DNA of 47,841 nt from Candidatus Woesearchaeota archaeon (GTDB lineage: Archaea > Nanobdellota > Nanobdellia > Woesearchaeales > GW2011-AR9): assembly GCA_016185725.1 (NCBI GenBank), contig JACPNA010000057.1:1-47841 (forward strand), read 5' to 3'. Every line of letters starts with the position of its first letter. Position 1 is the first letter of the stretch. The notes under the pieces are model-generated. The model saw only the letters and a program-made list of their open reading frames with translations. It was not told where the DNA came from and searched no databases. Positions 22,512 to 44,301 of this stretch are shown here, piece by piece. Position numbers and translations under genes: made by a program.

Positions 22512-22849
22512 ATTTTCACCAACAATTCCAACAACATTAATAGTTTAAATACCTTACTACATCCTAACCTATACATTCTACCGCCATAATTTTAAATAAA
22601 TAAAACATCCTTTTGTCAATCTGCCCATTCATAAATATTTTCTTTTTATTTTCTTATTCCTCTTCTCTTTCCTCTTTCTGGTAACTTTCTTAATCCAAAC
22701 TATACCCTCATCAATCTAAGTTTTGATGCCATAACCACTACTAATATTCTCACTATTTTCTCCTTTAGCCGCATTCCTCTCACGTTTTATTACATGTCAA
22801 AATATCAAACCACAATATTATTCTCAATAACACCAATCCAAAACTAAAA

Positions 22850-22993
22850 TATGCTTTTTCCACCAGTGTGTTTCACTGGTGGTACACATCCACTAACACT
22901 TAAAGTGGAAAAAGCATGGTCAGAAAACCGACCCGAGCCCGCAGGCGAGCATGCCACCAGTCTATTGACTGGTGGTGATCAGTTTTCTTTGAC
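22850..22993 (+). mobile_element. Structured non-autonomous element, copy 1 (144 bp)
   Basis: Differs from copies 3 and 5 at 4 positions each; preceded by TAAAA, ends TTGAC; hairpins CCACCAGTG/CACTGGTGG and CCACCAGTC/GACTGGTGG. Confidence 0.9.
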
Positions 22994-23183
22994 TATCTTC
23001 ACATTTATCTCTCCAGTAATTCCAATAACGAAACTCCAGAAGAATTATTTAAAGAAATGAATGAAAAGTTCAGTGGCATCTTAGTATTCGATTGGAATTA
23101 AATGATTCTCTTATTATTCTATATTCATTAAATGTCATTATACCACCACAAACCTTTAAAATAACCATTACTAAAACCAACCC

Positions 23184-24386
23184 ATGACCATTTTCACCTT
23201 AAAATACTCCCCAAAGAACAGCGAACAAATCTTCGGTCAAGACCTTCCTCTTTCCCAGCTTAAAAATTTCATTTTAAATTATAAATCACAAAAACATAAA
23301 GCCGCTTTGTTAGAAGGACCTATTGGCGTAGGTAAAACTTCTTCAGTTTATGCCTTAGCCAAAGAATTAAATTATGATCTTTTAGAATTAAATTCATCAG
23401 ATCTAAGAGACGAAGCTTCTATGAAATCATTTCTTAGCTCTGCACTTGGCCAGCAATCTTTATTTTTTCGTCCTAAATTAATCTTAATTGATGAAGTTGA
23501 CAACATCTCTGGAAGAGAAGATCGTGGTTGTATCCCTGCTTTAATCTCCGAAATCGAATCATCCAAATTTCCCGTAATCTTAACCGCAAACGATACCTCC
23601 GACAGCAAGCTTAAACCCTTGCATAAAGTTTGCTTAGAGATTGAATATCATAAACCACAATATCGTACCATTGCCAATATTTTACAACTGGTTTGCGAAC
23701 AAGAAAAAATATCCTTTGACGAAAAATGCCTTAATACACTCGCAAGACAAGTGGATGGTGATATTCGTGCAGCATTAATTGACTTACAAATCTGCTCTCC
23801 CTGCAATCAACTCAACTACGATTTAATTACCAAAATATCTGATCGTAAACGTACCCAATCAATTCTCAACTCCTTATCTATCATCTTCAAATCCTCTCAA
23901 GCCAGCAATGCTTTACCCGTTCTTGATGATATTGATATGGACATGAATGAAATCTTTTTATGGATGGACGAAAATCTTCCCCAAGAATACCTCTCCGCAA
24001 AATCCTTAGCTAAAGCCTATGAATCTCTTGCTCGCGCTGATGTTTTCAACGGTCGTATTAAGCGTAGACAGCACTGGCGTTTCTTAGTTTACATCAATAA
24101 TCTATTAACCGCCGGTATTTCCGCAGCCAAAGACGAAAAAAATCCTAATTTCATCCAATACAAACCTACAATGCGCATCTTAAAAATTTGGCAGGCTAAC
24201 CTGAAAAATTCCAAGAAAAAAGAAATCGCCAAAAAATTAGCCTTAGCCACGCATACTTCCAAAAAAGTTGCTCTTGAACAAATACCTTACTTCCAATCCA
24301 TCTTTCAGAAATCAAATAATCTATTATTAACTAAAGAACTTAATCTTACCGATGAAGAAGTAGAATGGTTAAGAAAAAAAACATAA
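23184..24386 (+). CDS. rfcL: Replication factor C large subunit
   Basis: KYSPK, GPIGVGKT, ELNSSDLR, IDEVD, GDIRAA, WMDENLP. Confidence 0.93.
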   Translation: MTIFTLKYSPKNSEQIFGQDLPLSQLKNFILNYKSQKHKAALLEGPIGVGKTSSVYALAKELNYDLLELNSSDLRDEASMKSFLSSALGQQSLFFRPKLILIDEVDNISGREDRGCIPALISEIESSKFPVILTANDTSDSKLKPLHKVCLEIEYHKPQYRTIANILQLVCEQEKISFDEKCLNTLARQVDGDIRAALIDLQICSPCNQLNYDLITKISDRKRTQSILNSLSIIFKSSQASNALPVLDDIDMDMNEIFLWMDENLPQEYLSAKSLAKAYESLARADVFNGRIKRRQHWRFLVYINNLLTAGISAAKDEKNPNFIQYKPTMRILKIWQANLKNSKKKEIAKKLALATHTSKKVALEQIPYFQSIFQKSNNLLLTKELNLTDEEVEWLRKKT

Positions 24387-24438
24387 AATAAATTATAACA
24401 CTAATCTTAATAAATAAACCCTATCCTACCCACTCATC

Positions 24439-25452
24439 ATGAATCAAGATACTGCCTCCCTGATACAGCAAGCAAACTCTGTTTATCAGCAACATTTTCC
24501 GAACATAACCAGCTTCGAGCGTGCCGTGTTCTTCAGTTGGGGTTGTACCATTGGCGATTGCGCATTTTGTTATATGAGTACCCAGCCGGCGAGTAAAAAA
24601 CCCACAGAAACAAAACGAAGCTCTGCCTCTATTTTAGCCGAATTTATTCTTTCAAAAAATCTCGGCTGGGATATCGGATTTTTTACAGGAGGCATCGGCG
24701 TCCTTAAACCAGAAGAACTAGAATTTCTCCTTAAAACTATCTGCCAAATAATCCCGCAAAAAATCTGGCTTTCTATAGGTCCGATACCCAAACCACTCCT
24801 GCAACGCTATCAACCCTATATTTGCGGCATCGTTGGTTCAACAGAAACTATCAATCCCGCACTTCATAAAAAAGTCTGCCCATCCAAACCTCTCGCCCCC
24901 TATGAACGAATGTTTAAACATGCCCAAGAACTAAATTTAGAATGTGCCATGACATTTATCGTGGGACTAGGCGAAAATAAAAACGATCTTCCTTTACTTA
25001 TTAACTTTATCAACAAATATACTATTCGCAAAATTCATGTGTACAGTCTAATCCCTGAGAAAGGAACGGCGTTTGAACATGCCCACATTCCCTCTGCAGA
25101 AGAACAAGCCTGGTGGATTGCCCAGCTTCGAATTAATTTTCCGACTCTTAATATTCAATGTGGTATTTGGGAAGATCGCGTCGACCGTATCTCTATTCTC
25201 TTAATGGCAGGAGCAAACTCCCTCTCTAAATTCAAAGCCTTAAAGCTTTTTGGCACACCCATTGCTCAAGAAATCGAACAGCAAGCAATTCTTGCCAACC
25301 GAACATTTCGGGGCACATTAACCAAGATTCCTAGTATAGATTGGGATGCGCAAGTAGATATCCTTGACCTGCCTCCCAGATTAAAATTACAGATTAAACA
25401 GCAGATACAACAATACCTTAATACTATGCAGAAAAATAGCGCTAAAAAATAA
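24439..25452 (+). CDS. Radical SAM protein (biotin synthase-like archaeal group)
   Basis: CTIGDCAFCYM cluster motif, TGG, ETIN...VCPSKP, IVGLGE, PEKGT. Confidence 0.85.
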   Translation: MNQDTASLIQQANSVYQQHFPNITSFERAVFFSWGCTIGDCAFCYMSTQPASKKPTETKRSSASILAEFILSKNLGWDIGFFTGGIGVLKPEELEFLLKTICQIIPQKIWLSIGPIPKPLLQRYQPYICGIVGSTETINPALHKKVCPSKPLAPYERMFKHAQELNLECAMTFIVGLGENKNDLPLLINFINKYTIRKIHVYSLIPEKGTAFEHAHIPSAEEQAWWIAQLRINFPTLNIQCGIWEDRVDRISILLMAGANSLSKFKALKLFGTPIAQEIEQQAILANRTFRGTLTKIPSIDWDAQVDILDLPPRLKLQIKQQIQQYLNTMQKNSAKK

Positions 25453-25476
25453 TTCTTTATTTTCATAAATTATTTT

Positions 25477-26283
25477 TTACTTCTCTTTAATTTTATTATT
25501 CTTAACATCATTCACAATTTTTTCTGTAATTTCTATAACTATACCAAAATTTATTACTCTATTTTCTATCCAGCCTCCACCATACATCCCGCCAGCAATA
25601 AAAAGTAGGTTATACCTCCCAAATCCAACAATTTTCAAATATTGTTCAAAAGATGTATCAAAAATAGAGTAATAAAAAAAAAGACCTAAATATGCTGCAG
25701 CAATTCCGAATAAATCAAACATAGTTGCAAATCCCCTGCACAAAGAAAGGTTACCCTTTTCTTCTTTTGATGAGATAAGTGACCCCCTTCCTAATACATA
25801 CCCAACTGTGAACAATCCTCCTGTTACAATTACCCCAAAAATAGGAACTAAATTTGAAATAATTCTAGTTGTAATAGTAAAATATGAGTTTTCCACCAGT
25901 GGTTGCTCGCAAGCAACTCCGGAACAAAGTGACCGGGTATAGTTCCGCTGGTGGCGTAGCCACAACAATCTTCACTTCGATTAGAAAACTCATGGTTGGA
26001 AAACCACCTCGAGCGAAGCGAGCATGCATGAAATTTGAAAACTATCAAATTTCAGCACTGAAAACAAATATTTTTTTGTTTTCATGTGCCACTAGTGTTG
26101 AGCCCGTAGGCGATCACAAGAAATGTGAGGAACATCACATTTCTGTGCTGAAATGAAATCGATGTTTCATTTCATGCACCAGTGGTGGGCGGTTTTCCTT
26201 GACAATAGAAACAATCCTGCCGAGAACACTATCCCAATAAATCCAAACAATATTGCCCATACCCAGCATTTTATTTTATTCAT
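25477..26283 (-). pseudogene. Membrane protein gene split by element copy 2 (161 aa when rejoined)
   Basis: GGTGA SD plus ATG 26283 gives MNKIKCWVWAILFGFIGIVFSAGLFL; the same frame resumes at 25882 (FTITTRIISNLVPIFGV...) to the stop at 25477. Confidence 0.8.
25883..26203 (+). mobile_element. Structured non-autonomous element, copy 2 (321 bp, two nested 60-bp modules)
   Basis: TAAAA|TATGAGTTTTCC...GAAAACTCATG, then GGAAAACC...GGTTTTCCTTGAC; same two-domain architecture as the 144-bp copies. Confidence 0.88.
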
Positions 26284-26480
26284 TGTTTAATCACCAAACT
26301 AGAATTTACTTTTTCTTCAGCGTAATAATCTGGACGAGTATACGGTAACATTTTGATTATTTTTAGTCTATCATACATATGTTCTAATAATAATAAACTA
26401 GAAGGTATTTTTTATTATATCACTATTAGTTTTTGATTTTCGCCGACTAATCTCTTTCTTATTGACACAGTAGTAATCCA

Positions 26481-27554
26481 TCATATCCGCTCCATCAAAT
26501 ACCCTAACTCTGTTACTCTAATATTATGGGCATTGGTAGTAAATAATAGCCCGTATGTTGGTTTGGCTATTTCAATTTCTCTTCCACAAACTTGAAGATA
26601 ATCTTCACTTTTATCCAATCCATGCTCTAAGAAGCAGAGTGGAAAATCATCCCCCTCATAACATCCTAGCGGACCAAACTCTTGCACAGACGTTTGGTTT
26701 AAATCCTCAATATCAGAGCGGACAAAAAATTTATTTTTTTCTAAATGTGTCTCTTTTTTCACATTATAAAATGAAAAGTTAATTTTATCTTTAATCACCA
26801 TACGCCCAAGTTCTTTATAAAACAGCGGATTTTTATAAGTTTTCTTTTGGTCTTCTTTTTTGTATTGTATACACTGGTTGATCATTTCCTTTCCAGCAGT
26901 AAATGCTTCTAGTGTTCCTGTTTTGCCGCATTCAATCGTAATTGTTTCACAGATGTCAGAGAATCTATCCAGCAACGATCCTGGAAGCGGTCCAGAGTAA
27001 ATAATATGGTCTACTAAATTATGAATTAATATGCTATGGGCATACTTCTCTTGGACAAAAGCCAAGGGTTTATTCTTTCCGGTAGTATTATGAACATCAA
27101 TGATATATTCTGGATTAGTCTGCAAAATAATCTCTGTTAATTCTTCAATTTGCTCTCGCTGAACCATCGGCATATCTTCTCTTCCCTTTTCTCCTGGCTT
27201 AGTCCAGCACCGATTAAAATCAATTTGATCCGGCGCAAATCGTCTGTCAAACATAGGATAATACTCCCGCATCATCGCCCCATATCCATTAACTATAAGA
27301 AAATACAAATCATATCCTAACTCCACATTCTCGGAATATAACTTTTTCCAAGTATCCGCCAACGCGTATAATCCACTCGACTCATTAGCATGCTGTAATG
27401 TTACCACCCATCGCGCCCCCTCAGTTGCATTCTTGGAAGCATATTTCACTACCGTAGGCTTCTGTAATTCCGGCAGTAATTGTATAGCATGAAAGAATTC
27501 AGTAGTAAGCCAATATTCCGGTACTTTTTCATTATAGAGAATATTCTTTGTCAT
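26481..27554 (-). CDS. Succinylglutamate desuccinylase/aspartoacylase-like M14 hydrolase
   Basis: HANE (HxxE), DFNRCW, DVHNTTG, TIECG. Confidence 0.8.
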   Translation of the reverse strand: MTKNILYNEKVPEYWLTTEFFHAIQLLPELQKPTVVKYASKNATEGARWVVTLQHANESSGLYALADTWKKLYSENVELGYDLYFLIVNGYGAMMREYYPMFDRRFAPDQIDFNRCWTKPGEKGREDMPMVQREQIEELTEIILQTNPEYIIDVHNTTGKNKPLAFVQEKYAHSILIHNLVDHIIYSGPLPGSLLDRFSDICETITIECGKTGTLEAFTAGKEMINQCIQYKKEDQKKTYKNPLFYKELGRMVIKDKINFSFYNVKKETHLEKNKFFVRSDIEDLNQTSVQEFGPLGCYEGDDFPLCFLEHGLDKSEDYLQVCGREIEIAKPTYGLLFTTNAHNIRVTELGYLMERI

Positions 27555-27556
27555 TT

Positions 27557-27898
27557 TTAATCTTCTTTTACTAAATCAGAAATGACTTTGCAATCTCCAA
27601 CCAAAGGAGAACGGAAAGAAATTTCTTTTATTTTATCCCCTACAGTAATATTCTTATTCCTAATCTCATACCCACGTAAGCATCCTTCATAGTTTGTAAT
27701 TGTCATCTTCGGCGATTGTTCCGAAACGACCTTCCCTTCATGAACAAAATAAACATCGCATATTCCTATGCTTGTAACGACAACATCTTCAAGAGTCTCT
27801 CTCCACAAACCATTATAGGCAACCCACCCTATAGTCCCAGCGGCAATGCACACAAGTGTTCCCTTTGCGAATTCCAAGGCACATTTTTTATATTCCAT
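27557..27898 (-). CDS. Hypothetical protein with an N-terminal TM segment
   Basis: Part of a co-directional gene run; likely start MEYKK after a purine-rich SD. Confidence 0.6.
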   Translation of the reverse strand: MEYKKCALEFAKGTLVCIAAGTIGWVAYNGLWRETLEDVVVTSIGICDVYFVHEGKVVSEQSPKMTITNYEGCLRGYEIRNKNITVGDKIKEISFRSPLVGDCKVISDLVKED

Positions 27899-27937
27899 AA
27901 TTCTCCCCTCTGTTTTTATAAACAAATACTACAAAAA

Positions 27938-28744
27938 CTAAGCATAACCCCACTTGTTAGATATCATCTCCCCATTAAAATCATTAACAAATCGATGACA
28001 AGGAAAAATTTTAGTTATTTTTGGCTCATTCCTTCTGGTTTCTAATAATATAGAAATTGATTGAGTCTTAATTTTTGTTAGTTGTAAATATATATCTGGT
28101 TCAAATCCAACTTCATATTCGTCACTAAACTTAAATGCAGTTTTTTCTTTTTCAAATTCAATTTGCATTTTGCATTTTTTAACTTTTCTATACGACCCTC
28201 CAATTCCTGGAACATAATCATATTCTTCATCAGTAAATAATCTTAAATACATTTCTCGTATAATAACATTTGTAACAAACCCATACGCTTGTGAGGGTAT
28301 ATCCTTAATATCATCAAAATTATTTTTAGGATAAATTCTAGTTCCTAACAACACTTCTACTGGCGTAGGATTATTTGTAAATTTTCCATCACACAAATAA
28401 AATAAACTATCTTGCGAAGAAGGAATAATTTTTTCCCATTTTTTTGGTTGAGTTAAATAATAATACACTCGACATATTTGCACTAAGTCATAACTATGCG
28501 CCAATGTTCCTACCCCCCCTAATGTTATACCTATTCCCTCTATCCATTGCGTAATGTTTTCTGCATTTTGAATGGCATAAATTAATCCACTAGTTCCCGC
28601 TAACCAAAATGCTGAAGCTAAGGCTTTTTGTTTTAAGATTGTTTTGAGTATTGCTTCCGGATTAGAAGGATATTCCTTTGTTAAAAAAATTAATTCTTTC
28701 TCTGCATCAGTTCTAATCTCCAATATTTGTTCTAATGAGTTCAT
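27938..28744 (-). CDS. Hypothetical membrane protein (2 TM)
   Basis: 268-aa ORF with two hydrophobic segments. Confidence 0.7.
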   Translation of the reverse strand: MNSLEQILEIRTDAEKELIFLTKEYPSNPEAILKTILKQKALASAFWLAGTSGLIYAIQNAENITQWIEGIGITLGGVGTLAHSYDLVQICRVYYYLTQPKKWEKIIPSSQDSLFYLCDGKFTNNPTPVEVLLGTRIYPKNNFDDIKDIPSQAYGFVTNVIIREMYLRLFTDEEYDYVPGIGGSYRKVKKCKMQIEFEKEKTAFKFSDEYEVGFEPDIYLQLTKIKTQSISILLETRRNEPKITKIFPCHRFVNDFNGEMISNKWGYA

Positions 28745-28783
28745 AATGATATTTAAATAAATTTTATCTCGAGGTTTATTTTT

Positions 28784-29296
28784 TCATTTATTTGATTGAC
28801 ATTTTTTGCAAAAATATCTCCAGAGTATATCAGCAACTTCGTTACGCTCTGTATTAATCTCTTTTTGTTCTCCGCTTGTAGTTGTATAGCTAATAAGATA
28901 ACCAAGGCCAGAGCTTATTTTGTTTATATTCAAAATAGTATTAAGATTCAAATCAAAAGTTTTTTGCCATCCTTTTTTTACACAATATTCCCCCTCTTTC
29001 GTAATTTTAGTCATTACACATACTCTATCCCAACACTCTATCTCCGGATTACCATTGCCATATACTCGTGGATGTTCTCTTCTAAAAATGTTCAGTAATG
29101 CTCTTTTAGCCGAATTTTTATTATTAATGATATAGGTCTCTATTGACGATTGGTATGGTTCAGGATCTTCAACATAAAATGAAATCTCCTTAATTGGTTG
29201 TGGTTTATAAGTACAAGAAGTAATTCCTGTGCCTAGTATTCCCACTAAAATTGCCCTCCCAAATCCATTATAAATATTCCATTTTTTTTCGAGCAT
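28784..29296 (-). CDS. Hypothetical lipoprotein-like protein
   Basis: GGAGG before MLEKKW; hydrophobic stretch ending GITSC. Confidence 0.6.
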   Translation of the reverse strand: MLEKKWNIYNGFGRAILVGILGTGITSCTYKPQPIKEISFYVEDPEPYQSSIETYIINNKNSAKRALLNIFRREHPRVYGNGNPEIECWDRVCVMTKITKEGEYCVKKGWQKTFDLNLNTILNINKISSGLGYLISYTTTSGEQKEINTERNEVADILWRYFCKKCQSNK

Positions 29297-29300
29297 GTGG

Positions 29301-29459
29301 TCAGCCTCCGATGATTGTATCATCTTTTGTATAAAACAGCCCACTATCATATTTTTTCGGAGAACTTTCGCAGCTAATCATTGGTGAAAACAGGCTCATC
29401 AATGCACTTAATGTCACAATCTTTCGTTTTAGCATATAATTAATCTTTTCTTCTAGCAT
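29301..29459 (-). CDS. Small lipoprotein-like ORF or gene fragment (52 aa)
   Basis: MLEEKINYMLKRKIVTLSALMSLFSPMISCESSPKKYDSGLFYTKDDTIIGG; ends 4 nt before the next ATG. Confidence 0.45.
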   Translation of the reverse strand: MLEEKINYMLKRKIVTLSALMSLFSPMISCESSPKKYDSGLFYTKDDTIIGG

Positions 29460-29560
29460 AGTTGTTGACCTTCATTTATTATCTCTTACTTCCAAGTATA
29501 TACCAATATATTAAATAAAATAGTAATTTTTTCTACAAAAATGATAAAATTTATATAATA

Positions 29561-30634
29561 ATGACAATTTTAGTAAAAAAAATGCTGCCCAATAAGTTTA
29601 TAGGTCAAATTAAGGAATATCGATATTCTTCAGAAAAAGAGATTAAACTAGACCTCATTGATAGGAAAATTCTTTATCTCATTGAAATTAACGCACGATT
29701 TTCTCCTACTGCTATAAGTAAAATACTTTTAATTTCTCGCGAAACAATTTCCTATCGCATTAAAAAAATGGAAGAGTTGAATCTTCTTCACGGCTATGTA
29801 ACTTTATTCGATCATAAAAAACTTGGGTTTAATAATTACCGTATTTACTTAAAATTTAAAAATATCTTTAACGATAAAGAAATTATTGAGGAGCTCTTTA
29901 AATTATCAGAAATTACTACAATTGTTACCTGTTCTGGAAGTTATGATTTACAATTTGTCATCAGCGTAAAGACTCAAGATGAATTTCTTAAAACATTCGA
30001 TTCTATAATCGGCAAATATTCTCAGAGTATTGAAAGATTTAAAGTTCTTGAAATTTTCCAAGAAGGAATTGTCAGCAGGTGGATGATTCTTTGCGAAGAT
30101 GAAGCAAAAAAGATAAGAGTCATTAAAGAACATAAAGGTTCTACTTTTCAGAAAGAATTTCATCGAGCTTCCTCATATTCTACGCCTATATCTCTTGATG
30201 AAAAAGACCGAAAAATTTTAGAAATCTTAAAACTAGATGCTAAAGCCAGCATTAGTGCTCTTTCTAATAAACTTTCCTTATCTCCACTTAGTATTGAAAA
30301 TCGCATTAAAAAAATGATTTTAGCTGGTATTATCAAATCCTTTTTCCCACAATCTTCTCTAACTCAATTAGGTTATCAATGGTGGCATGTCTTACTTAAA
30401 ATGAAAAATCTTGATGAAAAAAAATTCTTCACGTTTATTGAACATCACCCCAATACCTCTTGGTATATGAAATTTTTAGGGGAATGGGATTACCAATGTA
30501 GTATCTATGCTAAAACCAATGCAGATTTTCATGATATTCTCGAACAAATTAGACATGAATTTGCAGATAATATTATGTATTATGATTCATTTATCATGTT
30601 CAATCAGTTAAAATACAGCCAAAGGGTTCTATGA
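29561..30634 (+). CDS. Tandem Lrp/AsnC family transcriptional regulator
   Basis: Two units (LDLIDRKIL..NAR and LDEKDRKIL..DAK), each an HTH followed by a RAM-like domain. Confidence 0.9.
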   Translation: MTILVKKMLPNKFIGQIKEYRYSSEKEIKLDLIDRKILYLIEINARFSPTAISKILLISRETISYRIKKMEELNLLHGYVTLFDHKKLGFNNYRIYLKFKNIFNDKEIIEELFKLSEITTIVTCSGSYDLQFVISVKTQDEFLKTFDSIIGKYSQSIERFKVLEIFQEGIVSRWMILCEDEAKKIRVIKEHKGSTFQKEFHRASSYSTPISLDEKDRKILEILKLDAKASISALSNKLSLSPLSIENRIKKMILAGIIKSFFPQSSLTQLGYQWWHVLLKMKNLDEKKFFTFIEHHPNTSWYMKFLGEWDYQCSIYAKTNADFHDILEQIRHEFADNIMYYDSFIMFNQLKYSQRVL

Positions 30635-36004: not shown

Positions 36005-36016
36005 AAGGAGATTAAA

Positions 36017-36808: not shown

Positions 36809-36828
36809 AGCAATAATTATTATAAAAT

Positions 36829-37065: not shown

Positions 37066-37092
37066 ATTTTTTATTTTAATCTTTTTCACTTT

Positions 37093-37383
37093 ATGATTAA
37101 TAAGATTACTAAAGAAAAATTAGAAAAATATTTCTCTGTTACTCAGCAAGCTTTAGATAAAGCTAAACTTGCCTTTGATGAAAAACGCCCATCGCAAGCC
37201 GAAGATTTTTTTGACATGGCTTCTCGTTACTTCCAAGACGCTCAATTTTTCTCCCAAGAAAAACACGATTATGTTACCGCCTTTGCCGCCTTAAATTATG
37301 CTCATGGTTGGCTTGACGCCGGTGCTAGGATTGGTTTGTTTAAAGTCAACGATTCTAGACTATTCACCGTAGACGACCAGTAA
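37093..37383 (+). CDS. DUF357 domain protein
   Basis: MASRYFQDAQFF...AFAALNYAHGWLDAGARIGLF. Confidence 0.88.
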   Translation: MINKITKEKLEKYFSVTQQALDKAKLAFDEKRPSQAEDFFDMASRYFQDAQFFSQEKHDYVTAFAALNYAHGWLDAGARIGLFKVNDSRLFTVDDQ

Positions 37384-37568
37384 GCCTACTACGAGTAAGC
37401 CTATTTTTCTTAAGAACATAGTTCTATTGTAACTACTATCAAGTTTCAAAACAACCAAAAGATTTATAAAGAACCACTGTTATAAGCTATAAATCATCAT
37501 ATTTGAAAGGGGTTCTAGTTTATTGCGATGTTTAATAATTATATCTTCAGAAGGAGGAAAAAAATAAC

Positions 37569-38369
37569 ATGATCATCCAAAAAGATTTTTTGAACCGCTT
37601 AAAAGACTTCGGTCTCAATACCTATGAAAGCAAATTATGGGTCGCTTTATTATCGCGTGGAGTTTCCACTGCCGGTGAATTATCTGACATTTCTAATGTT
37701 CCCCGTTCTCGTGCTTACGATGTTCTAGAATCCCTTGAAAAAAAAGGTTTTATTATTGTTAAAGTTGGAAAACCAATAAAATATTTAGCCGTTCCGCCAT
37801 CAGAAGTAGTTGAACGCGTTAAGAAAAAAGTTGTTGAAGAAGCAGATCAAAGACACAAAATATTATCCCAATTGAAAGACAGCGATGTTCTTGATGAACT
37901 TAACACCTTGCATACCGAAGGCGTTAAAATGATTGATCCTACCGACAAATCAGGCGCGTTCCGTGGCCGGGAAAAAGCATATGAACATATTACCACGATG
38001 ATCAAAAACGCTAAAAAAAGCGTTGTCTTAATGACCTCTAAAGAAGGCGTAGACCGTAAATATGATTTACTAAATAATCATTTCAAAAAAGCTGCCAAAA
38101 GTGGTGTTGACATCCGTATCGCTGTTCCTAATAATGCTAACAAAGAAACCATTAGCAACCTATCTAAACTCGGCAGTAAAGTCCATACAATTAAGAACAT
38201 AACCAACAACGCTCGTTTTTGCATTGTTGATGGCAAAGACCTACTGTTATTCTTAACCGACGACCAAAAAGTGCATAAAAGTTACGACTGTGCTGTTTGG
38301 GTCGAAGCTCCTCATTTTGTTGACTACTTCCAATCCTTGTTTGACAAAGAATGGAACGAAAAACAATAA
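37569..38369 (+). CDS. TrmB family transcriptional regulator
   Basis: GLNTYESK...SNVPRSRAYDVLESLEKKGF...GKPIKY, followed by a PLD-like domain. Confidence 0.92.
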   Translation: MIIQKDFLNRLKDFGLNTYESKLWVALLSRGVSTAGELSDISNVPRSRAYDVLESLEKKGFIIVKVGKPIKYLAVPPSEVVERVKKKVVEEADQRHKILSQLKDSDVLDELNTLHTEGVKMIDPTDKSGAFRGREKAYEHITTMIKNAKKSVVLMTSKEGVDRKYDLLNNHFKKAAKSGVDIRIAVPNNANKETISNLSKLGSKVHTIKNITNNARFCIVDGKDLLLFLTDDQKVHKSYDCAVWVEAPHFVDYFQSLFDKEWNEKQ

Positions 38370-38554
38370 ATTTTTTTCTTTTTAATCTTTTTATTCTCTA
38401 TTCTCACCTTGGAAGACAAAAAACCTGCCCTCATCATTTAGATTAGAAAACATCAATCTGAAAAAAGTTCAAATATTTATTCTTTCTGGACCTCATGTAT
38501 GGTCAGAATTTATAAAATTGGCTGTTCATAATTACCAAAAAAAGAAAAAGTAAA

Positions 38555-38905
38555 CTAAAAAAAACTCCCCTTAAATATTGAGCCTATCTCTGCTTTAAAC
38601 AATGTATCAATATTAATTGTTGTGATAAAGTTAATATTAAATTCTTTATTATACATCTTTTTGTAATAATTATCATTCTCTATTGCTTTAATCCCTTCAC
38701 TAGAACAATTCAAAAAATAGAATTGACCATCACTCGCTTCTTTTAATGAACTCTCTTCCAGAAGTTTATCTCTTTTTAGAAATCTTATTGCTTTTTCAAC
38801 ACGATTATGATCCCAATCAACTTTCTTTGCTAGTTCTACAGAACCAATATTCTCATTACGATATACTTGTGCTAACAAAAAAAGACCATCTTCAATGATT
38901 GCCAT
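38555..38905 (-). CDS. Hypothetical protein, possible winged helix
   Basis: AGGTGA SD before MAIIED; helix-turn-helix-like spacing. Confidence 0.55.
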   Translation of the reverse strand: MAIIEDGLFLLAQVYRNENIGSVELAKKVDWDHNRVEKAIRFLKRDKLLEESSLKEASDGQFYFLNCSSEGIKAIENDNYYKKMYNKEFNINFITTINIDTLFKAEIGSIFKGSFF

Positions 38906-39014
38906 ATTATCACCTTGTTTTATTTTAAAAATAATCACTATTAACCAGTTTTATTAAGATTATGAAACCAAAACTAACAATATATTAACTTAGCACCTTT
39001 TTCTAACACTAAAA

Positions 39015-39158
39015 TATGCTTTTTCCACCAGTGTGTTTCACTGGTGGCACACATCCACTAACACATAAAGTGGAAAAAGCATGGTCAGAAAACCGACCCG
39101 AGCCCGCAGGCGAGCATGCCACCAGTCTATTGACTGGTGGTGGTCGGTTTTCTTTGAC
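39015..39158 (+). mobile_element. Structured non-autonomous element, copy 3 (144 bp)
   Basis: Near-identical to copies 1 and 5; TAAAA|TATG...TTGAC. Confidence 0.9.
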
Positions 39159-39533
39159 TAGTTCTAAATTCAAAAGTTAAAACCAATTAATAATGGGACA
39201 AAAACTTCTTGGCTAAAGCCTCGACCTGAGGATAAACCTCAGGAAGCTTAACATCAAAAGTATTAACCGTGGAAGTAGAACCTGATCACAATGAAATATT
39301 ATCAATGGGATACGGTGAAAATAGTATGTCCGAACAAGTCCGTCCATCTCCTCCCGAATACAAAACGAATGTTGAATGGGGAAATACTATTATACATACT
39401 GACTTCTATGACAATCGCCAAGAAACAGAAAGTGGTCATGCTCTTCGTGTGAGACTATTTCGCATTGTATTAAATTAAATAAAACCAATTTTTAACCTAC
39501 ACTTTTTTAAACTCCAATTAATTTCTTTACTAA

Positions 39534-39881
39534 ATGCCAGGATTAAAACAAGTAATTTTAGTACGGAAAGACTTGCAGATGCCTAAAGGCAAACTCGCCG
39601 CACAATGCGCTCACGCTTCTGTCGAAGCCGTTCTCAAATCTGATCAAAAAGTAGTCCAAGCATGGTCCAAACAAGGCATGCCTAAAATTGTTCTCAAAGT
39701 AGAAGACGAAAAAGAACTTCTGCAATACTACCAAAAAGCAAAAGATACTAAACTTGCCGCTTCCCTAATTATCGACGCCGGTCGTACAGTTCTCGCCCCA
39801 AATACTAAAACCTGCGTTGGCATCGGCCCAGATGACGAAAAGAAAATAGATACTATTACAAAATCATTACCTCTCCTCTAA
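39534..39881 (+). CDS. pth2: Peptidyl-tRNA hydrolase Pth2
   Basis: KQVILVRKDL.MPKGKLAAQCAHAS, DAGRT, GIGP. Confidence 0.96.
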   Translation: MPGLKQVILVRKDLQMPKGKLAAQCAHASVEAVLKSDQKVVQAWSKQGMPKIVLKVEDEKELLQYYQKAKDTKLAASLIIDAGRTVLAPNTKTCVGIGPDDEKKIDTITKSLPLL

Positions 39882-39926
39882 CCACCCAAAAACTTTATAA
39901 ATAAGCCATCTTCTAATCTCTAAATA

Positions 39927-40235
39927 ATGAAACTACCTAAAGTAATGAAACGTTTTTGCAAATATTGCAAAAAACACACTGAACAAAAAGTAGCTGCTAA
40001 CAAAAAGAAAGCGGCAAGTTCTTTAAGTCACGGTTCTAAAATTCGTGCCAGTTTACGTGGCAGAGCTCGTGGTGTAGGTAACCTTGGTCGTTATTCTAAA
40101 CCCGCCGTAACCAAATTCAAACGTTCTGGTGCAAAAAACACTAAAAAATCAGACCTTCGCTATACTTGTAACATCTGTAAAAAAACCAGTGTACAATCAC
40201 ACGGAATTCGTGCAAAACGTGTGGAGTTAGTCTAA
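39927..40235 (+). CDS. rpl44e: 50S ribosomal protein L44e (eL42)
   Basis: FCKYCKKHT, KK.DLRYTC..C; precedes S27e. Confidence 0.93.
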   Translation: MKLPKVMKRFCKYCKKHTEQKVAANKKKAASSLSHGSKIRASLRGRARGVGNLGRYSKPAVTKFKRSGAKNTKKSDLRYTCNICKKTSVQSHGIRAKRVELV

Positions 40236-40237
40236 AC

Positions 40238-40420
40238 ATGAGAAGTTCAACCCCTAAAAGCAAATTCATTAAAGTTCGCTGTTCTAAATGTAAAAACGAA
40301 CAACTGATTTTTGGCAACACCAGTACCGTTGTAACCTGCCTAGTTTGTAACAAAGAAGTAGCTTATCCTACTGGCGGAAAGTCTCGCATCTCTGCAAGAG
40401 TTCTAGAAATTTTAGAATAA
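40238..40420 (+). CDS. rps27e: 30S ribosomal protein S27e
   Basis: SKFIKVRCSKCKNEQLIF, C..C, PTGGK. Confidence 0.95.
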   Translation: MRSSTPKSKFIKVRCSKCKNEQLIFGNTSTVVTCLVCNKEVAYPTGGKSRISARVLEILE

Positions 40421-40489
40421 ATATCTCTCATTTTCTTTCTTATAGTCAACGACACAATTAAATAATAATATTATCTGTCGTTTCCTGTT

Positions 40490-40722
40490 TAGTAACTGAT
40501 ACTATTTTTGTACATGGCGCCTGCTGAACCCCTCGAGTTAAGCCCGCAGGCGAAACTTGACGGATGAAAGCAGGAGTAGAGCGCTGTGTAGGATAAAAGA
40601 ACAGCAACGTGCTCAGACAACGCCAATGCACTATTCGGCTTAGCTTCCCCACACGTGACGCCACGAGTTAAGCCCGCAGGCAAAACTCGTGGTAGTTCAC
40701 GTCTTACTTATATCAGTTACTA
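40490..40722 (+). mobile_element. IS200/IS605-like miniature element (about 40520-40700) inside a 12-bp inverted repeat
   Basis: LE-like CCTGCTGAACCC..hairpin..GATGAAAGCAGG; RE-like GCCACGAGTT..AACTCGTGGTAGTTCAC; outer IR TAGTAACTGATA/TATCAGTTACTA. Confidence 0.75.
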
Positions 40723-40767
40723 TTAACAACAAACATTTATAAATATCCTCTCTAAAAAGTATTTAAA

Positions 40768-41547
40768 ATGTTTTACAAACGCCACGGATTGCCTGAAGTC
40801 GATGAAATTGTACTCTGTAAAGTAACCAAACTCTACCCTAACTCTGTTTTCGTTGATCTTCTAGAATACGGCGAATCTGGAATAGTTCACATTTCTGAAG
40901 TATCGCCAGGAAGAATTCGTAACCTGCGTGATTTTGTCAGTATTGATCGCCAAATAGTCTGTAAAGTTCTTCGTGTGGATCTCCAAAATCATCACATTGA
41001 TTTATCTTTAAGAAGAGTAAACACAACACAGCGCCAGCAAAAACTAGAAGAAATCAAACAAGAATTAAAATCTGAACTTCTTATAAAAAACATCAGTAAA
41101 AAACTAAATAAGCCCGTAGAACAACTTTATCAAGAGATATCCAAAAAAGTTTTCAAAGAATATTCTCACCTTTACCTCTGCTTTCATGACGTTATTGATA
41201 ATCCCCATTTATTAGAAAAATTAGGTATAGAAAAAAACCTTGCTAAAGAGCTGGAAGAAGCCATTATTGAAAAGTTTAAACCTAAAAAAATCCTTCTTAA
41301 AGCCCTCATAACTTTACAGACTTATGACCAAAATGGTATTGATAAAATAAAATCTATCTTGCTTGCCATAGAAAAAGTATCCTCTTTCACTACTATCCTT
41401 TTCCTTGGCGGCGGTCGCTACCAGCTTTCTATTGAAGACACCGATTATAAAAAAGCAGAAAAAAAGCTTAAACAAGTTGAAGATTTACTGGAAAAATTCA
41501 ACGATAAATTATCTGTCTCCTCATTAGAACGAGAAAAAACGGAATAA
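40768..41547 (+). CDS. eif2a: Translation initiation factor 2 alpha subunit
   Basis: PEVDEIV S1 domain, HISEVSPGRIRN, IDLSLRRV. Confidence 0.95.
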   Translation: MFYKRHGLPEVDEIVLCKVTKLYPNSVFVDLLEYGESGIVHISEVSPGRIRNLRDFVSIDRQIVCKVLRVDLQNHHIDLSLRRVNTTQRQQKLEEIKQELKSELLIKNISKKLNKPVEQLYQEISKKVFKEYSHLYLCFHDVIDNPHLLEKLGIEKNLAKELEEAIIEKFKPKKILLKALITLQTYDQNGIDKIKSILLAIEKVSSFTTILFLGGGRYQLSIEDTDYKKAEKKLKQVEDLLEKFNDKLSVSSLEREKTE

Positions 41548-41549
41548 AA

Positions 41550-41732
41550 ATGTCTTCAGCCCATATCTACAAATGCTCTTCTTGTCAACATTACACCCTG
41601 GAAAAAACCTGTTTCCAATGCCGTCTTGGAACAATTTTACCAAAACCACCCAAATATTCTCCCGAAGACAAATATGGATCTTACCGTAGAAATATTAAAA
41701 AATTGGAATTAAATCAAAAAGGATTATATTAA
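41550..41732 (+). CDS. nop10: Nop10 (H/ACA RNP protein)
   Basis: KC..C..YTL...C..C, PPKYSPEDKYGSYRR. Confidence 0.93.
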   Translation: MSSAHIYKCSSCQHYTLEKTCFQCRLGTILPKPPKYSPEDKYGSYRRNIKKLELNQKGLY

Positions 41733-41734
41733 AA

Positions 41735-41956
41735 TATGAGTTTTCCAATCTAGATGTGACTAGATGCGACTACGCCACCAGTTAAACTATACACCGGCGG
41801 AAAACTCATGACCAGAAAACCGCTCCGAGCGAAGCGAGCATGCATGAAATTTGAAAATTATCAAATTTCAACACTGAAAGCAAATAGTTTTTTGTTTTCA
41901 TGTGCCACTGTGTTGAGCCCGCAGGCAATCACTCTTGGTGGGCGGTTTTCTTTGAC
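41735..41956 (+). mobile_element. Structured non-autonomous element, copy 4 (222 bp, one nested module, inverted left interior)
   Basis: TAAAA (overlapping the nop10 stop)|TATGAGTTTTCC...GGAAAACTCATG, GAAAACCGC...GCGGTTTTCTTTGAC. Confidence 0.88.
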
Positions 41957-42023
41957 ATAATAAAAAAAATTACAGAAAATGTTTAATATTTTCTTGTTCC
42001 TAACTCAACACTGCGAATTTTCG

Positions 42024-42857
42024 TTATTTAATATCTAAATTTAACAAATCGCCATTAATCACCACTCCTCGTGTGATCCCTTCCAGTAATACTACCTCTT
42101 CTCCACTTTTATCTAAATCAATAGACCCTTTGAACGCCCCGATATTCAGAGCATCTTGCTTCAAAACATAGCTTAACCTTCCGCCTAATTCTAATTTGCC
42201 ATCGCCTTTTGAGAATATCACATCTCTTAATTCCACATTGGCAATGCCCAATTTTTGATAATTAATATTACTAAATGCAATTTTAATGTCTTTATCAGAA
42301 GCTAAAGCCACTCCATTAATCTCTATTTTCTTTGCCTTGCCATTGACAGAAAAACCATTATCTAATTTCATTTCACCGACAAAACCTTGAATATCAAAAC
42401 TAATTTCTCCCTTATTGCTTAACTGTAATTTATCATTATTGACATAAATATCATTATTCAAATCTTGGAATATTAAATTAACTTCTGATAATCTCACTTG
42501 TTTTCTAATTGTAGGAATTTCACTGAACGATAAACTCGTTTCCACCTCTTTTTTTCCTGCACCAAACGTATCTACACTAGAATAAGTTCCCGTACTTTTT
42601 GTATTTTGCTGTTCATCACTATTGCCCCAACTAAGAAAATTACTCTCTACACCATCATCACTATTCGAATCTAAACTATTGGCTTCGACATTATCTTTAA
42701 TCATTCCCTTTATATCCGTTACTGCCGCAGTCCCTAAACCAAAACCGCCTTTGTTATTCAATAACACAACCAAAAAAATTGCTCCTATAACTAACGTTAC
42801 TAACACAATATAAAATCTAAGATGACTTTTCGGCTTATATCCCTGTTGATCGTACAT
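42024..42857 (-). CDS. Hypothetical membrane-anchored beta-rich protein
   Basis: GAGGTG SD, N-terminal TM helix, Ser/Asn-rich linker. Confidence 0.75.
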   Translation of the reverse strand: MYDQQGYKPKSHLRFYIVLVTLVIGAIFLVVLLNNKGGFGLGTAAVTDIKGMIKDNVEANSLDSNSDDGVESNFLSWGNSDEQQNTKSTGTYSSVDTFGAGKKEVETSLSFSEIPTIRKQVRLSEVNLIFQDLNNDIYVNNDKLQLSNKGEISFDIQGFVGEMKLDNGFSVNGKAKKIEINGVALASDKDIKIAFSNINYQKLGIANVELRDVIFSKGDGKLELGGRLSYVLKQDALNIGAFKGSIDLDKSGEEVVLLEGITRGVVINGDLLNLDIK

Positions 42858-42997
42858 AATCACACCTCTCTTTAAACATTAATTTCTTTTAATATTATTT
42901 ACTGTCTTAAATATTAGACGTTAATAAACTTTTTGGTTATTAAATCTCCTCTAAATCCCAAACATTTATAAATAAAACTACAAAACAGAGCGTATTC

Positions 42998-43059
42998 GAG
43001 AGGCGGATTGGTCATAAGCTTATCCGTACTGGAGAAGACGCTAATGCTCATTCTCCCTC
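42998..43059 (+). promoter_or_regulatory. Candidate structured uS15 mRNA leader
   Basis: GC-rich island between the TATA at about 42965 and rps15; stems CGGAT/ATCCG, GGAGAA/TTCTCC and a closing GAG/CTC. Confidence 0.55.
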
Positions 43060-43092
43060 ATAAAATAAACAAATTCGAGGTAAAAAAAAACA

Positions 43093-43545
43093 ATGGCAAG
43101 AATGCACTCCGGTGCTCATGGAAAAAGTGGCAGTAAAACGCCTGTTAAAAGAATTCCTTCCTGGGCCCCTTTTAAAGAAAAAGAAGTAGAAAAATTAATT
43201 GTTAAATACTCCAAAGCTGGTAAAAGTTCTAGCGAGATAGGTATGATTTTGCGTGACAGCTATGGCATTCATAGTATCAAAGCATTAACCGGCAAAAAAT
43301 TATCAGCAATTTTAGAAGAAAATAAAGTTGGCAAAAAATTACCTGACGACTTGATTAGTTTAATCAAAAAAATGATTTTTATTAAACAGCATCTGGAAAA
43401 AAATAATCTAGATGAAACTGCTAACCGCGGTTTAATCTTAACACAATCAAAAATTTTTCGTTTGGTTAATTATTACAAGAAGAAAAAGAAACTTCCTGCA
43501 GATTGGGAATTAGATACAGACAGATTAAAGATTTATATCGAATAA
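43093..43545 (+). CDS. rps15: 30S ribosomal protein S15 (uS15/S13e)
   Basis: MARMHS..HGKSGS, IGMILRDSYGI, LPDDL, RLVNYYK. Confidence 0.97.
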   Translation: MARMHSGAHGKSGSKTPVKRIPSWAPFKEKEVEKLIVKYSKAGKSSSEIGMILRDSYGIHSIKALTGKKLSAILEENKVGKKLPDDLISLIKKMIFIKQHLEKNNLDETANRGLILTQSKIFRLVNYYKKKKKLPADWELDTDRLKIYIE

Positions 43546-43766
43546 ATCTTTGCTTTTTCATTTTAATATTTTTCATTATTTTAACATATACTTTATATTG
43601 TTTATTTAAATATTTAAAAACACCTTCATTTCCTATGCAAAACCTTTAAATATAAGTGACCGCTCGAATAGTTATGTTGGTATCAATAGACAATTAAATT
43701 AATGTTTAATTATAACTATTGGAACTGATTTTTAGGGGTGTGTGGTGAACCATTGGGGGTGTCAAA

Positions 43767-44039
43767 TTGAATAAAAAAAAGGTTATTTTTGACGTGTTTT
43801 TCAGAGAAAAACCAGCGATGATGCTAGTAGAGTTAAAAAATGCCGACTCTGCCGTATACGCATCTGTATTAGCCAAACAAATTGACTGCACATACTCTCA
43901 CGTTGTGAAGATATTGCAGGAAATGCAGAAAGCGGACTTGATCAATTTCAAAAAAGAAGGCCGTTTAAAATTACTTGAGCTGACCAAGAAAGGAAAAGAT
44001 ATAGCTTCTAACATTGAAAGTATACGAACTATGTTATAA
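43767..44039 (+). CDS. Winged-helix (MarR-like) DNA-binding protein
   Basis: GGGGTG SD with TTG start; CTYSHVVKIL, GR...LTKKG. Confidence 0.85.
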   Translation: MNKKKVIFDVFFREKPAMMLVELKNADSAVYASVLAKQIDCTYSHVVKILQEMQKADLINFKKEGRLKLLELTKKGKDIASNIESIRTML

Positions 44040-44063
44040 ACTCCTCTTTGGAGTTATTTTTTT
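44039..44063 (+). terminator. Hairpin plus T-run after the wHTH gene
   Basis: AACTCC-TCTTT-GGAGTT followed by a T tract. Confidence 0.45.
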
Positions 44064-44157
44064 AATTTTTTTAATTGTTTAGTCTACTTTACTGTATACT
44101 TATAAAAAAATTATTATTCTTATTTATAAAAAGCCATATAACTTGTTAAAACTAAAA

Positions 44158-44301
44158 TATGCTTTTTCCACCAGTGTGTTTCACTGGTGGTACACATCCA
44201 CTAACACTTAAAGTGGAAAAAGCATGGTCAGAAAACCGACCAGAACCCGCAGGCGAGCATGCCACCAGTCTATTGACTGGTGGTGGTCGGTTTTCTTTGA
44301 C
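44158..44301 (+). mobile_element. Structured non-autonomous element, copy 5 (144 bp)
   Basis: Near-identical to copies 1 and 3; TAAAA|TATG...TTGAC. Confidence 0.9.

What the first reader, a model, noticed from the sequence alone, without database searches (positions are those of the whole stretch)
22845..44301. Five co-oriented copies of a structured, transposase-free element with covarying stems
Seen: copies at 22850, 25883, 39015, 41735 and 44158 all follow TAAAA, start TATG and end TTGAC. They have unrelated right flanks, no consistent target duplication, no terminal IRs and the same orientation. Each folds into two abutting domains covering its full length. The left stem is ATGCTTTTTCC/GGAAAAAGCAT in the 144-bp type and ATGAGTTTTC/GAAAACTCAT in the longer type, a compensatory change. 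The right stem is GAAAACC/GGTTTTC. Known: 4-5 nt 5' targets, no duplication, subterminal hairpins and orientation bias are traits of IS200/IS605 HUH transposition. Inference: a recently active ssDNA MITE/REP-like family at about one copy per 10 kb, mobilised in trans and possibly also transcribed as structured RNA.
Basis: partly seen in the sequence, partly recalled or inferred. Interest (0 to 1): 0.85.

Follow-up and report, generated by a model that had tools for sequence, protein, structure and literature searches.

The report
Hairpin-ended mini-transposons in a tiny archaeon
The five repeats are real copies of a small, gene-less mobile element that is moved by a single-strand DNA transposase encoded elsewhere in the same small groundwater archaeal genome, which is a known kind of element seen here in an unusually clear and well-structured form.

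Summary
Five co-oriented copies (144, 321, 144, 222 and 144 bp) each follow TAAAA, start with TATG and end with TTGAC. They belong to a family of about 55-58 copies in a 1.03-Mb, 97%-complete archaeal genome. The nearest relatives of its transposase are labelled Woesearchaeota or Nanoarchaeia.

- Two related metagenome contigs read TAAAA|ATAAT exactly where copy 4 sits. This is a precise empty site with no duplication.
- The genome has six Y1 HUH (IS200-type) transposase matches. One of these genes is followed by a right end built like the element's right domain.
- No TnpB was found.
- 42 of 50 copies lie on the locally C-rich strand.
- The two closing stems and the right hairpin covary across genomes. 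The right closing stem is shared with transposase-bearing relatives in other genomes.
- Recent copies decay neutrally, so the fold is selected in the copies that transpose, not in every copy.

This is a palindrome-associated transposable element (PATE) of the IS200/IS605 family. It is a new member of a known kind.

Three points stay open: the replication polarity, why the transposase-bearing copies face the other way, and whether the element is transcribed.

The parts
22845..22849 (+). TAAAA target pentanucleotide 5' of copy 1. The same motif lies at 25878-25882, 39010-39014, 41730-41734 and 44153-44157.
   Evidence: Genome-wide, 48 of 58 left-end sites follow TAAAA.
22850..22993 (+). Copy 1, 144-bp type, with two G>A changes in the 3' arm of the right closing stem.
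25883..26203 (+). Copy 2, 321-bp long type. It has the same two closed domains with extra AT-rich hairpin modules nested inside them.
39015..39158 (+). Copy 3, 144-bp type, used here as the exemplar.
39016..39082 (+). Left domain of copy 3. The closing stem pairs 39016-39026 with 39072-39082. It encloses the left subterminal hairpin CCACCAGTG..CACTGGTGG at 39025-39047.
   Evidence: Helix 1 has 4 of 11 pairs with changes on both sides.
39084..39158 (+). Right domain of copy 3. The closing stem pairs 39084-39098 with 39142-39158. It encloses a mini-hairpin at 39102-39111 and the right subterminal hairpin at 39119-39140. CATG lies 5' of the hairpin foot and TTTGAC is the terminus.
   Evidence: The architecture is shared with the right ends of tnpA-bearing elements.
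41735..41956 (+). Copy 4, 222-bp long type. It is precisely absent from related metagenome contigs L049 and L050, which read TAAAA|ATAATAAAAAAAAT.
44158..44301 (+). Copy 5, 144-bp type.
40443..40722 (+). A second, low-copy inserted element of about 280 bp. It belongs to the same mobilome but is not part of the five-copy family. It has two hairpins with loop AGCCCGCAGGC. It is absent from L049 and L050, and the junction is ambiguous by the trinucleotide TTA.

Best explanation
The five repeats are non-autonomous derivatives of IS200/IS605-type insertion sequences, that is, palindrome-associated transposable elements (PATEs).

Structure. Each copy consists of a left end and a right end. Both ends carry the same kind of subterminal hairpin (CCACCAGT..ACTGGTGG), and there is no gene between them.

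Mechanism (inferred). A Y1 HUH tyrosine transposase (TnpA), encoded at several other loci of the same genome, binds the hairpins on one DNA strand. It cuts just 3' of TAAAA at the left and after ..TTGAC at the right, releases a single-stranded circle, and pastes it 3' of another TAAAA in single-stranded DNA. Nothing is duplicated.

What is shown.
- Fixed ends.
- The TAAAA target.
- One precise empty site.
- Strand-biased orientation.
- TnpA genes with related ends in the same genome.
- Covarying structure.
- Neutral decay of the individual copies.

What is inferred.
- That one of these TnpA proteins moves the element in trans.
- That a single-stranded circle is the intermediate.
- That the closing stems serve transposition, by presenting both cleavage sites at the base of a helix or by stabilising the excised circle.
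For: 1. Family size and ends. The genome holds 55 left-end and 57 right-end motifs, and 58 left-end sites by the looser pattern. These form 40 left-right pairs: 14 of 144 bp, 10 of 124 bp, and other sizes from 51 to 321 bp. Of the 58 left-end sites, 48 follow TAAAA, 6 TATAA, 1 TACAA and 3 something else.

2. Empty site. Contigs L049 and L050 are 91-94% identical to the window. They run ..GGATTATATTAAAA directly into ATAATAAAAAAAAT, which is window 41734 joined to 41957.

3. Transposase. There are 6 Pfam Y1_Tnp matches over the cut-off in the genome and 171 homologue clusters of about 143 aa. The HUH motif aligns with ISDra2 TnpA.

4. Related ends.
- The tnpA gene at C5 352-852 is followed by a right end that is 79-88% identical over 58-86 nt to right ends of the element, and it ends in TTTGAC.
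- Left ends of tnpA units carry a related hairpin.
- On contig C20 an element copy sits directly after a TAAAA inside such a left end.

5. Right-end architecture. It is shared by 7 right ends of tnpA units and 7 of gene-less elements. Each 3' arm pairs 9.5 of 10 positions with its own partner, against 7.24 of 10 with swapped partners (n = 160). There are 11 distinct arms.

6. Covariation. 12 of 46 pairs change on both sides, against 4.5 +/- 1.4 in shuffles (0 of 500 reach 12) and 2-3 in slid controls.

7. Orientation. 42 of 50 copies lie on the C-rich strand, while TAAAA itself is 57% there (p = 8e-5). Orientation is unrelated to the direction of neighbouring genes: 14 convergent, 10 divergent, 6 tandem in the same direction, 10 tandem in the opposite direction, 4 at contig edges.

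8. Neutral decay of recent copies. Among 31 near-full copies there are 42 substitutions in 90 paired positions and 29 in 54 unpaired positions.

9. Known parallels. Deletion forms match behaviour described for PATEs. One example is a 51-bp copy made only of fused ends (PMC3119063, passages read, describes 52-bp terminal-only PATEs).
Against: - No autonomous copy with the element's exact left terminus (TATGC..) was found in this fragmented assembly. Left ends of the tnpA units start TTTTCTTTACC.. or (TT/AT)CTTTTTCC...
- Only one empty site was obtained. The same-genus genomes are too diverged (65-78% identity) to give more.
- The tnpA-bearing units face the opposite way relative to skew at 5 of 6 loci.
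- If the skew has the usual polarity, the gene-less copies lie mostly on the leading-strand template. That is the opposite of the IS608 and ISDra2 pattern (PMC5027513, passages read).
- TnpA activity, the circle intermediate and the guide-to-cleavage-site interactions are untested.
Confidence: 0.88

Rival explanations
1. A REP/RAYT-type system. Under this reading the repeats are host-domesticated extragenic palindromes, spread and maintained by a stationary REP-associated tyrosine transposase, and are not derivatives of a mobile insertion sequence.
For: - The Y1 proteins are labelled 'REP element-mobilizing transposase RayT' by one source's automatic annotation.
- 44 of 50 copies are intergenic.
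- Several tnpA loci have element copies nearby.
Against: - There are six Y1 matches at five contigs, not one gene per repeat family.
- The tnpA units have their own left and right ends, with unrelated flanks in five genomes.
- The hairpin foot is preceded by TTTTT or CATG, not by GTAG or GTGG. The GTAG/GTGG criterion comes from PMC6006769 (passages read).
- The two hairpins are in direct orientation, not inverted, and each has its own distinct terminus.
Confidence: 0.05
2. A dispersed family of structured non-coding RNA genes or cis-regulatory RNAs. Under this reading the fold, not mobility, is why the copies exist.
For: - The fold is strong (z -9.1).
- The stems covary.
- A T-rich tract follows the last stem.
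Against: - Both strands fold equally well.
- Individual copies accumulate substitutions in paired positions at least as fast as in unpaired ones. The resulting mismatches are mostly A.C (20), not G.T (8).
- There is no Rfam match.
- Hairpin loops and whole domain interiors are flipped in some copies, which is a DNA-level event.
- Copy 4 is an insertion polymorphism.
Confidence: 0.04
3. A non-autonomous element moved by some other machinery, such as a DDE transposase or a TnpB/IscB-guided process.
For: None directly. The assembly is incomplete (97% by marker genes, 62 contigs), so a gene could be missing.
Against: - There are no terminal inverted repeats and no target duplication.
- OrfB_IS605 gives 0 matches, and the Cas12f1-like TNB domain gives only matches below its cut-off.
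Confidence: 0.02

Closest known systems
PATEs (palindrome-associated transposable elements) of Haloquadratum walsbyi and other haloarchaea (PMC3119063, passages read)
   Same: [quoted passage not shown]
- No terminal inverted repeats.
- Near-terminal palindromes that resemble each other and those of IS605-type transposons.
- No target duplication, and a short 5' targeting sequence.
- Homogeneous families with more than 90% identity.
- About 52-bp terminal-only forms made by deletion between the two palindromes. Here there is a 51-bp copy.
- Other small repeats insert into the palindromes. Here hairpin modules are nested in the hairpin loops.
   Different: - The host is a reduced groundwater archaeon of about 1 Mb, not a haloarchaeon.
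- The parents found here carry tnpA only, whereas the haloarchaeal ones are mostly tnpB (IS1341-type).
- Each half of the element is closed by a covarying long-range stem. I did not see this described in the passages read.
IS608 and ISDra2, the studied IS200/IS605 members (PMC5027513 and PMC3597680, passages read)
   Same: - A Y1 HUH TnpA.
- Subterminal hairpins on one strand.
- Insertion 3' of a 4-5-nt target without duplication.
- Orientation biased with respect to strand asymmetry.
- Conserved short sequences 5' of each hairpin foot, where guide sequences sit (TTTTT at the left end, CATG at the right end).
   Different: - The target is TAAAA, not TTAC or TTGAT.
- There is no tnpB.
- The right hairpin is enclosed by a closing stem of 10 bp or more, which places the terminal TTGAC at the base of a helix.
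- The element is gene-less.
- The polarity of the bias is unknown and may be opposite.
PATE-like minimal elements of Geobacillus stearothermophilus (PMC10055086, passages read)
   Same: Gene-less elements share their left and right ends with tnpA- or tnpB-bearing IS copies and are predicted to be moved in trans. There are about 50 such substrates per genome.
   Different: Those elements often carry guide-RNA scaffolds for TnpB or IscB. No TnpB was detected here.
REP/REPIN elements with RAYT transposases (PMC6006769, passages read)
   Same: A Y1 HUH enzyme is paired with many dispersed intergenic palindromes.
   Different: See the membership test. The tetranucleotide at the hairpin foot, the inverted-pair arrangement and the single stationary gene are all not met.

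Membership tests
IS200/IS605-derived non-autonomous element (PATE) | No coding capacity and no terminal inverted repeats. | tested here: met
   Elements are 51-321 bp. The termini TATGC.. and ..TTTGAC are not inverted copies of each other.
IS200/IS605-derived non-autonomous element (PATE) | Subterminal palindromes at both ends that resemble each other. | tested here: met
   CCACCAGTG..CACTGGTGG lies at element positions 11-33 and CCACCAGTC..GACTGGTGG at positions 105-126.
IS200/IS605-derived non-autonomous element (PATE) | Insertion 3' of a fixed 4-5-nt target without target duplication. | tested here: met
   48 of 58 sites follow TAAAA, 6 TATAA, 1 TACAA and 3 something else. One precise empty site reads TAAAA|ATAAT.
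IS200/IS605-derived non-autonomous element (PATE) | A Y1 HUH transposase with matching ends is available in the same genome. | tested here: inconclusive
   - There are 6 Y1_Tnp matches over the cut-off.
- The right end of the C5 unit is 79-88% identical to right ends of the element, and the architecture is shared.
- The left hairpins are related, but the terminal nucleotides differ.
- No unit with identical ends was found.
IS200/IS605-derived non-autonomous element (PATE) | Orientation bias linked to the replication strand. | tested here: inconclusive
   The bias relative to GC skew is clear: 42 of 50 copies, p = 8e-5. The direction of replication could not be fixed.
IS200/IS605-derived non-autonomous element (PATE) | A single-stranded circular intermediate, with cleavage by TnpA on the top strand. 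| not testable with these tools
   This needs biochemistry, or junction reads from raw data.
REP/REPIN with RAYT | A short palindrome with GTAG or GTGG 5' of the foot, arranged as inverted pairs. | tested here: not met
   The foot is preceded by TTTTT (left) or CATG (right). The two hairpins are in direct order.
REP/REPIN with RAYT | One stationary transposase gene per repeat family, flanked by the repeats. | tested here: not met
   There are six Y1 matches on five contigs. The tnpA units have their own ends and unrelated flanks in five genomes.
TnpB/IscB guide-RNA-bearing PATE | A TnpB or IscB nuclease in the genome to use the RNA. | tested here: not met
   PF01385 gives 0 matches. PF07282 gives 3 matches, all below its cut-off. 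The assembly is 97% complete, so absence is not proven.
Any Rfam RNA family | A match at the family's gathering score. | tested here: not met
   There are 0 matches at gathering score in the whole window. In E-value mode the only matches are hairpin hits far below the cut-offs.
Classical MITE (DDE transposase) | Terminal inverted repeats and a target-site duplication. | tested here: not met

The most novel reading that the evidence does not exclude
The closed two-domain fold may be a selected adaptation of a distinct archaeal IS200 subgroup.
- Both cleavage sites sit at the base of covarying closing helices.
- The excised 144-nt single-stranded circle would therefore be an almost fully base-paired rod.

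The gene-less copies also face the opposite way to their tnpA-bearing parents in a genus with exceptionally strong strand asymmetry. That would mean one of two things.
- Gene-less copies persist on the strand where excision is disfavoured.
- Or this lineage has an inverted skew polarity.

In either case the orientation of these elements would be a usable marker of replication direction in uncultivated DPANN archaea.
Probability: 0.2. Interest if true: 0.6.

Novelty: new member of a known kind. Interest (0 to 1): 0.4.

Why it matters
- It documents a recently amplified single-strand-DNA transposon family in a reduced archaeal genome of about 1 Mb. The recent amplification is indicated by 92-100% identity among the 31 near-full 144-bp-type copies, by several identical 124-bp copies, and by one insertion polymorphism against related metagenome contigs. 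The family has about 55-58 copies, which explains much of the assembly fragmentation.
- It gives exact element boundaries, a target motif and a structural model that annotation pipelines can use for Woesearchaeota-type genomes. Related copies are present in 9 of 24 other genomes of the same family that were searched.
- The shared, covarying closing stem at the right end offers a testable structural requirement for this branch of Y1 transposases.
- The orientation bias, together with the very strong GC skew of this genus, offers a way to study replication-linked processes in organisms that cannot be grown.

Tried and rejected
Empty sites in same-genus genomes G001-G003. The coding flanks are only 65-78% identical and the intergenic DNA does not align. 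At site 3 the relatives lack a whole 1.1-kb segment, so there is no clean empty site.

Reads. Logan contigs of four groundwater runs were laid on 25500-45400.
- The contigs break at the elements.
- Among the 15 joints listed (14 more were not shown), none skips exactly one element.
- No part without cover is used as evidence.
- No RNA holder is listed, so expression could not be examined.

Replication polarity. None of these checks settled it.
- There is no skew switch at orc1/cdc6 on C59.
- A negative-to-positive switch on C23 shows no origin features.
- There is no gene-strand bias: 47% of coding bases are on the C-rich strand.
- The rRNA operon and the r-protein L2 gene give opposite answers.
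- The more contiguous relatives G040, G021 and G013 have no strong skew at all.

Coding. The 144-bp type is open in one frame from its ATG. The 124-bp type removes 20 nt and still amplified, so coding is rejected (reasoning).

Substitution spectrum as a test of strand-specific selection. G>A exceeds C>T on the top strand, 18 against 8 in 31 copies. This matches the direction of the skew, but it does not separate DNA-level from RNA-level function.

First attempt at the arm-swap test. One search used a wrong anchor and is discarded. One search replaces it. A MAFFT alignment of the right ends (A6) put some 5' arms out of register and was not used for pair counts.

Not done.
- A covariance model and R-scape were not run.
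- Supplementary tables of PMC3119063 (PATE ends) could not be seen and may show similar closing stems.
- ISfinder could not be consulted.
- None listed a paper on such elements in Woesearchaeota or DPANN. This covers only the held library.

Full report
THE OBSERVATION

An 18-nt left-end pattern that includes TAAAA matches exactly these five places. Chance expectation is 0.08. All copies end in TTGAC. An alignment shows unrelated flanks, no duplication and no terminal inverted repeats. It also shows that the 222- and 321-bp copies share both ends with the 144-bp type. Rfam at gathering score and ARAGORN (the tRNA and tmRNA gene scan) find nothing in the window.

THE SETTING

The window is a whole contig (C49) of a 1,026,428-base, 62-contig genome that is 97% complete by marker genes. 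The genome is archaeal.
- It has an archaeal 16S rRNA.
- It encodes eIF2-alpha, PTH2, TrmB and an RFC-like AAA+ clamp-loader ATPase.
- The nearest relatives of its transposase are labelled Candidatus Woesearchaeota or Nanoarchaeia.
- The runs that hold the window are groundwater metagenomes.

GENOME-WIDE CENSUS

The genome has 55 left-end and 57 right-end motifs. These pair into 40 complete elements: 14 of 144 bp, 10 of 124 bp, three of 125, two of 143, and single copies of 51, 85, 123, 151, 156, 161, 204, 218, 222, 281 and 321 bp. Of 58 left-end sites, 48 follow TAAAA, 6 TATAA, 1 TACAA and 3 something else.

The 124-bp type lacks a 20-nt segment yet exists in ten near-identical copies, so it amplified after the deletion. 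The 51-bp copy is the left hairpin fused to the right tail. The long copies carry extra hairpin modules nested within the two domains. Three copies have hairpin loops or a whole domain interior flipped. These are DNA-level events typical of palindromes.

EMPTY SITE

Two metagenome contigs (L049 and L050) were found with the neighbouring eIF2-alpha protein (98% amino-acid identity). They are 91-94% identical to the window in DNA. They align up to window 41734 and resume 20 nt later at 42024. Read base by base..GGATTATATTAAAA is followed directly by ATAATAAAAAAAAT, which is the sequence just right of copy 4. The element boundaries are therefore exactly TATG..TTTGAC. Insertion is 3' of TAAAA and nothing is duplicated.

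Same-genus genomes were too diverged for further empty sites. Laid contigs break at the repeats.

PARENTS

The genome has six Pfam Y1_Tnp matches over the cut-off on contigs C4 (two in tandem), C20, C52, C22 (with two in-frame stops) and C5. Pfam confirms four of them. The HUH motif of the C5 protein aligns with that of ISDra2 TnpA. OrfB_IS605 gives no match, and the TnpB zinc-ribbon domain gives only matches below its cut-off.

On C5 the intact 144-aa tnpA is followed at once by a right end ending in TTTGAC. Its layout is the same as the element's right domain, and it is 79-88% identical to right ends of the element over 58-86 nt. Left ends with a related hairpin precede tnpA on C5, C38, C52 and C47. 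On C20 an element copy sits right after a TAAAA inside such a left end.

Relatives of this TnpA in other genomes (68-91% identity) have the same left and right ends and unrelated flanks. No tnpA unit has exactly the element's first nucleotides. Mobilisation in trans therefore remains an inference.

STRUCTURE

As single-stranded DNA the 144-nt element folds into two abutting closed domains (-44.2 kcal/mol, z -9.1). The other strand folds as well (z -9.3). The long forms keep both closing stems.

Nine short forms from five genomes were aligned.
- 97.1% of cells pair.
- 12 of 46 pairs change on both sides, against 4.5 +/- 1.4 in shuffles (0 of 500) and 2-3 in slid controls.
- The changes lie in the left closing stem, the right closing stem and the right hairpin.

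In a separate test on 14 right ends (7 from tnpA units, 7 from gene-less elements), the 10-nt 3' arm pairs 9.5 of 10 positions with its own upstream partner. With partners swapped between sequences it pairs 7.24 of 10 (n = 160). There are 11 distinct arms. The 8-bp hairpin is fully paired in 12 of 14 sequences, with nine different sequences.

The right closing stem is therefore an ancestral feature of this IS subgroup. The left closing stem was seen only in the gene-less elements, including those of six other genomes.

Within this genome the recent copies are not protected. Among 31 near-full copies there are 42 substitutions in 90 paired positions and 29 in 54 unpaired ones. The mismatches are mostly A.C (20), not G.T (8). 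Selection thus acts on whatever copy transposes, not on each resident copy. This argues against a family of RNA genes.

ORIENTATION

Contig-scale GC skew is very strong, 0.15-0.4 in absolute value.
- Of 50 copies of at least 100 nt, 42 have their top strand on the locally C-rich strand.
- TAAAA itself is only 57% on that strand, giving p = 8e-5.
- Orientation is unrelated to neighbouring genes, and 44 of 50 copies are intergenic.
- The tnpA-bearing units face the other way at 5 of 6 loci.

In IS608 and ISDra2 the active strand lies on the lagging-strand template (PMC5027513, passages read). By established knowledge from bacteria and some archaea (my recall), that strand is the G-rich one. I could not fix the polarity here.

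The strong skew is shared by the three same-genus genomes. In them, orthologous genes in the same orientation carry opposite skew. The skew is not seen in G013, G021 or G040.

COMPARISON WITH WHAT IS KNOWN

The element meets the definition of a PATE. It has no inverted terminal repeats, it has near-terminal palindromes related to those of IS605-type transposons, it makes no target duplication, and it is too short to code. It also shares the roughly 52-bp terminal-only forms and the invasion of its palindromes by other small repeats (PMC3119063, passages read).

PATE-like elements moved in trans are also described in Geobacillus (PMC10055086, passages read). IS200/IS605 is reported as the most widespread IS family in archaea (PMC13343696, abstract and passages read).

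The element fails the REP/RAYT criteria (PMC6006769, passages read).

My three literature searches listed no description of such elements in Woesearchaeota. This covers only the held library.

VERDICT

It is a new member of a known kind.

Three features deserve follow-up:
- the covarying closing stems;
- the opposite orientation of gene-less and tnpA-bearing copies;
- the exceptional strand asymmetry of the genus.

Noticed in passing
window 40443-40722: A further insertion of about 280 bp is absent from the related contigs L049 and L050. The junction is ambiguous by the trinucleotide TTA.
- It has two hairpins with loop AGCCCGCAGGC.
- Its right hairpin is 96% identical to C22 35980-36029, just downstream of the decayed tnpA on C22.
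- Its left 50 bp recur on C2 and C45.
It is probably a second, low-copy element of the same transposon family.
   Followed up: partly
whole window and genome; loci L033-L048: The GC skew is exceptionally strong on the scale of contigs, 0.15-0.4 in absolute value. It is shared by the three same-genus genomes, where orthologous genes in the same orientation carry opposite skew. It is not seen in G013, G021 or G040. The cause and the polarity are unknown.
   Followed up: partly
window 1-141: This stretch is identical or near-identical to the ends of contigs C43 (both ends), C14 and C48. It is an unresolved repeat that breaks the assembly.
   Followed up: no
window 26024-26088 and 26114-26184: The AT-rich hairpin modules nested in the long copies recur at 75-94% identity at many loci of the same-genus genomes G001-G003. 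Those genomes lack the 144-bp element.
   Followed up: no
window 38403-39486: This segment holds an unassigned ORF (38555-38938, - strand) and copy 3. It is missing between the TrmB and PTH2 genes in G001-G003 and in metagenome contig L051.
   Followed up: no
window 41551-41734: Copy 4 sits directly on the TAA stop codon of a small CxxC ORF downstream of eIF2-alpha. The ORF looks Nop10-like from my recall, and I did not test this. The stop codon is part of the TAAAA target.
   Followed up: no
G000 contig C4 6191-6331 and 7799-7939: A 141-bp exact direct repeat brackets two tandem tnpA genes that are 79% identical to each other.
   Followed up: no
G000 contigs C5, C52, C4, C22, C38 versus C20: The tnpA-bearing units have their sense (top) strand on the G-rich strand at 5 of 6 loci. 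This is the opposite of the gene-less copies.
   Followed up: partly
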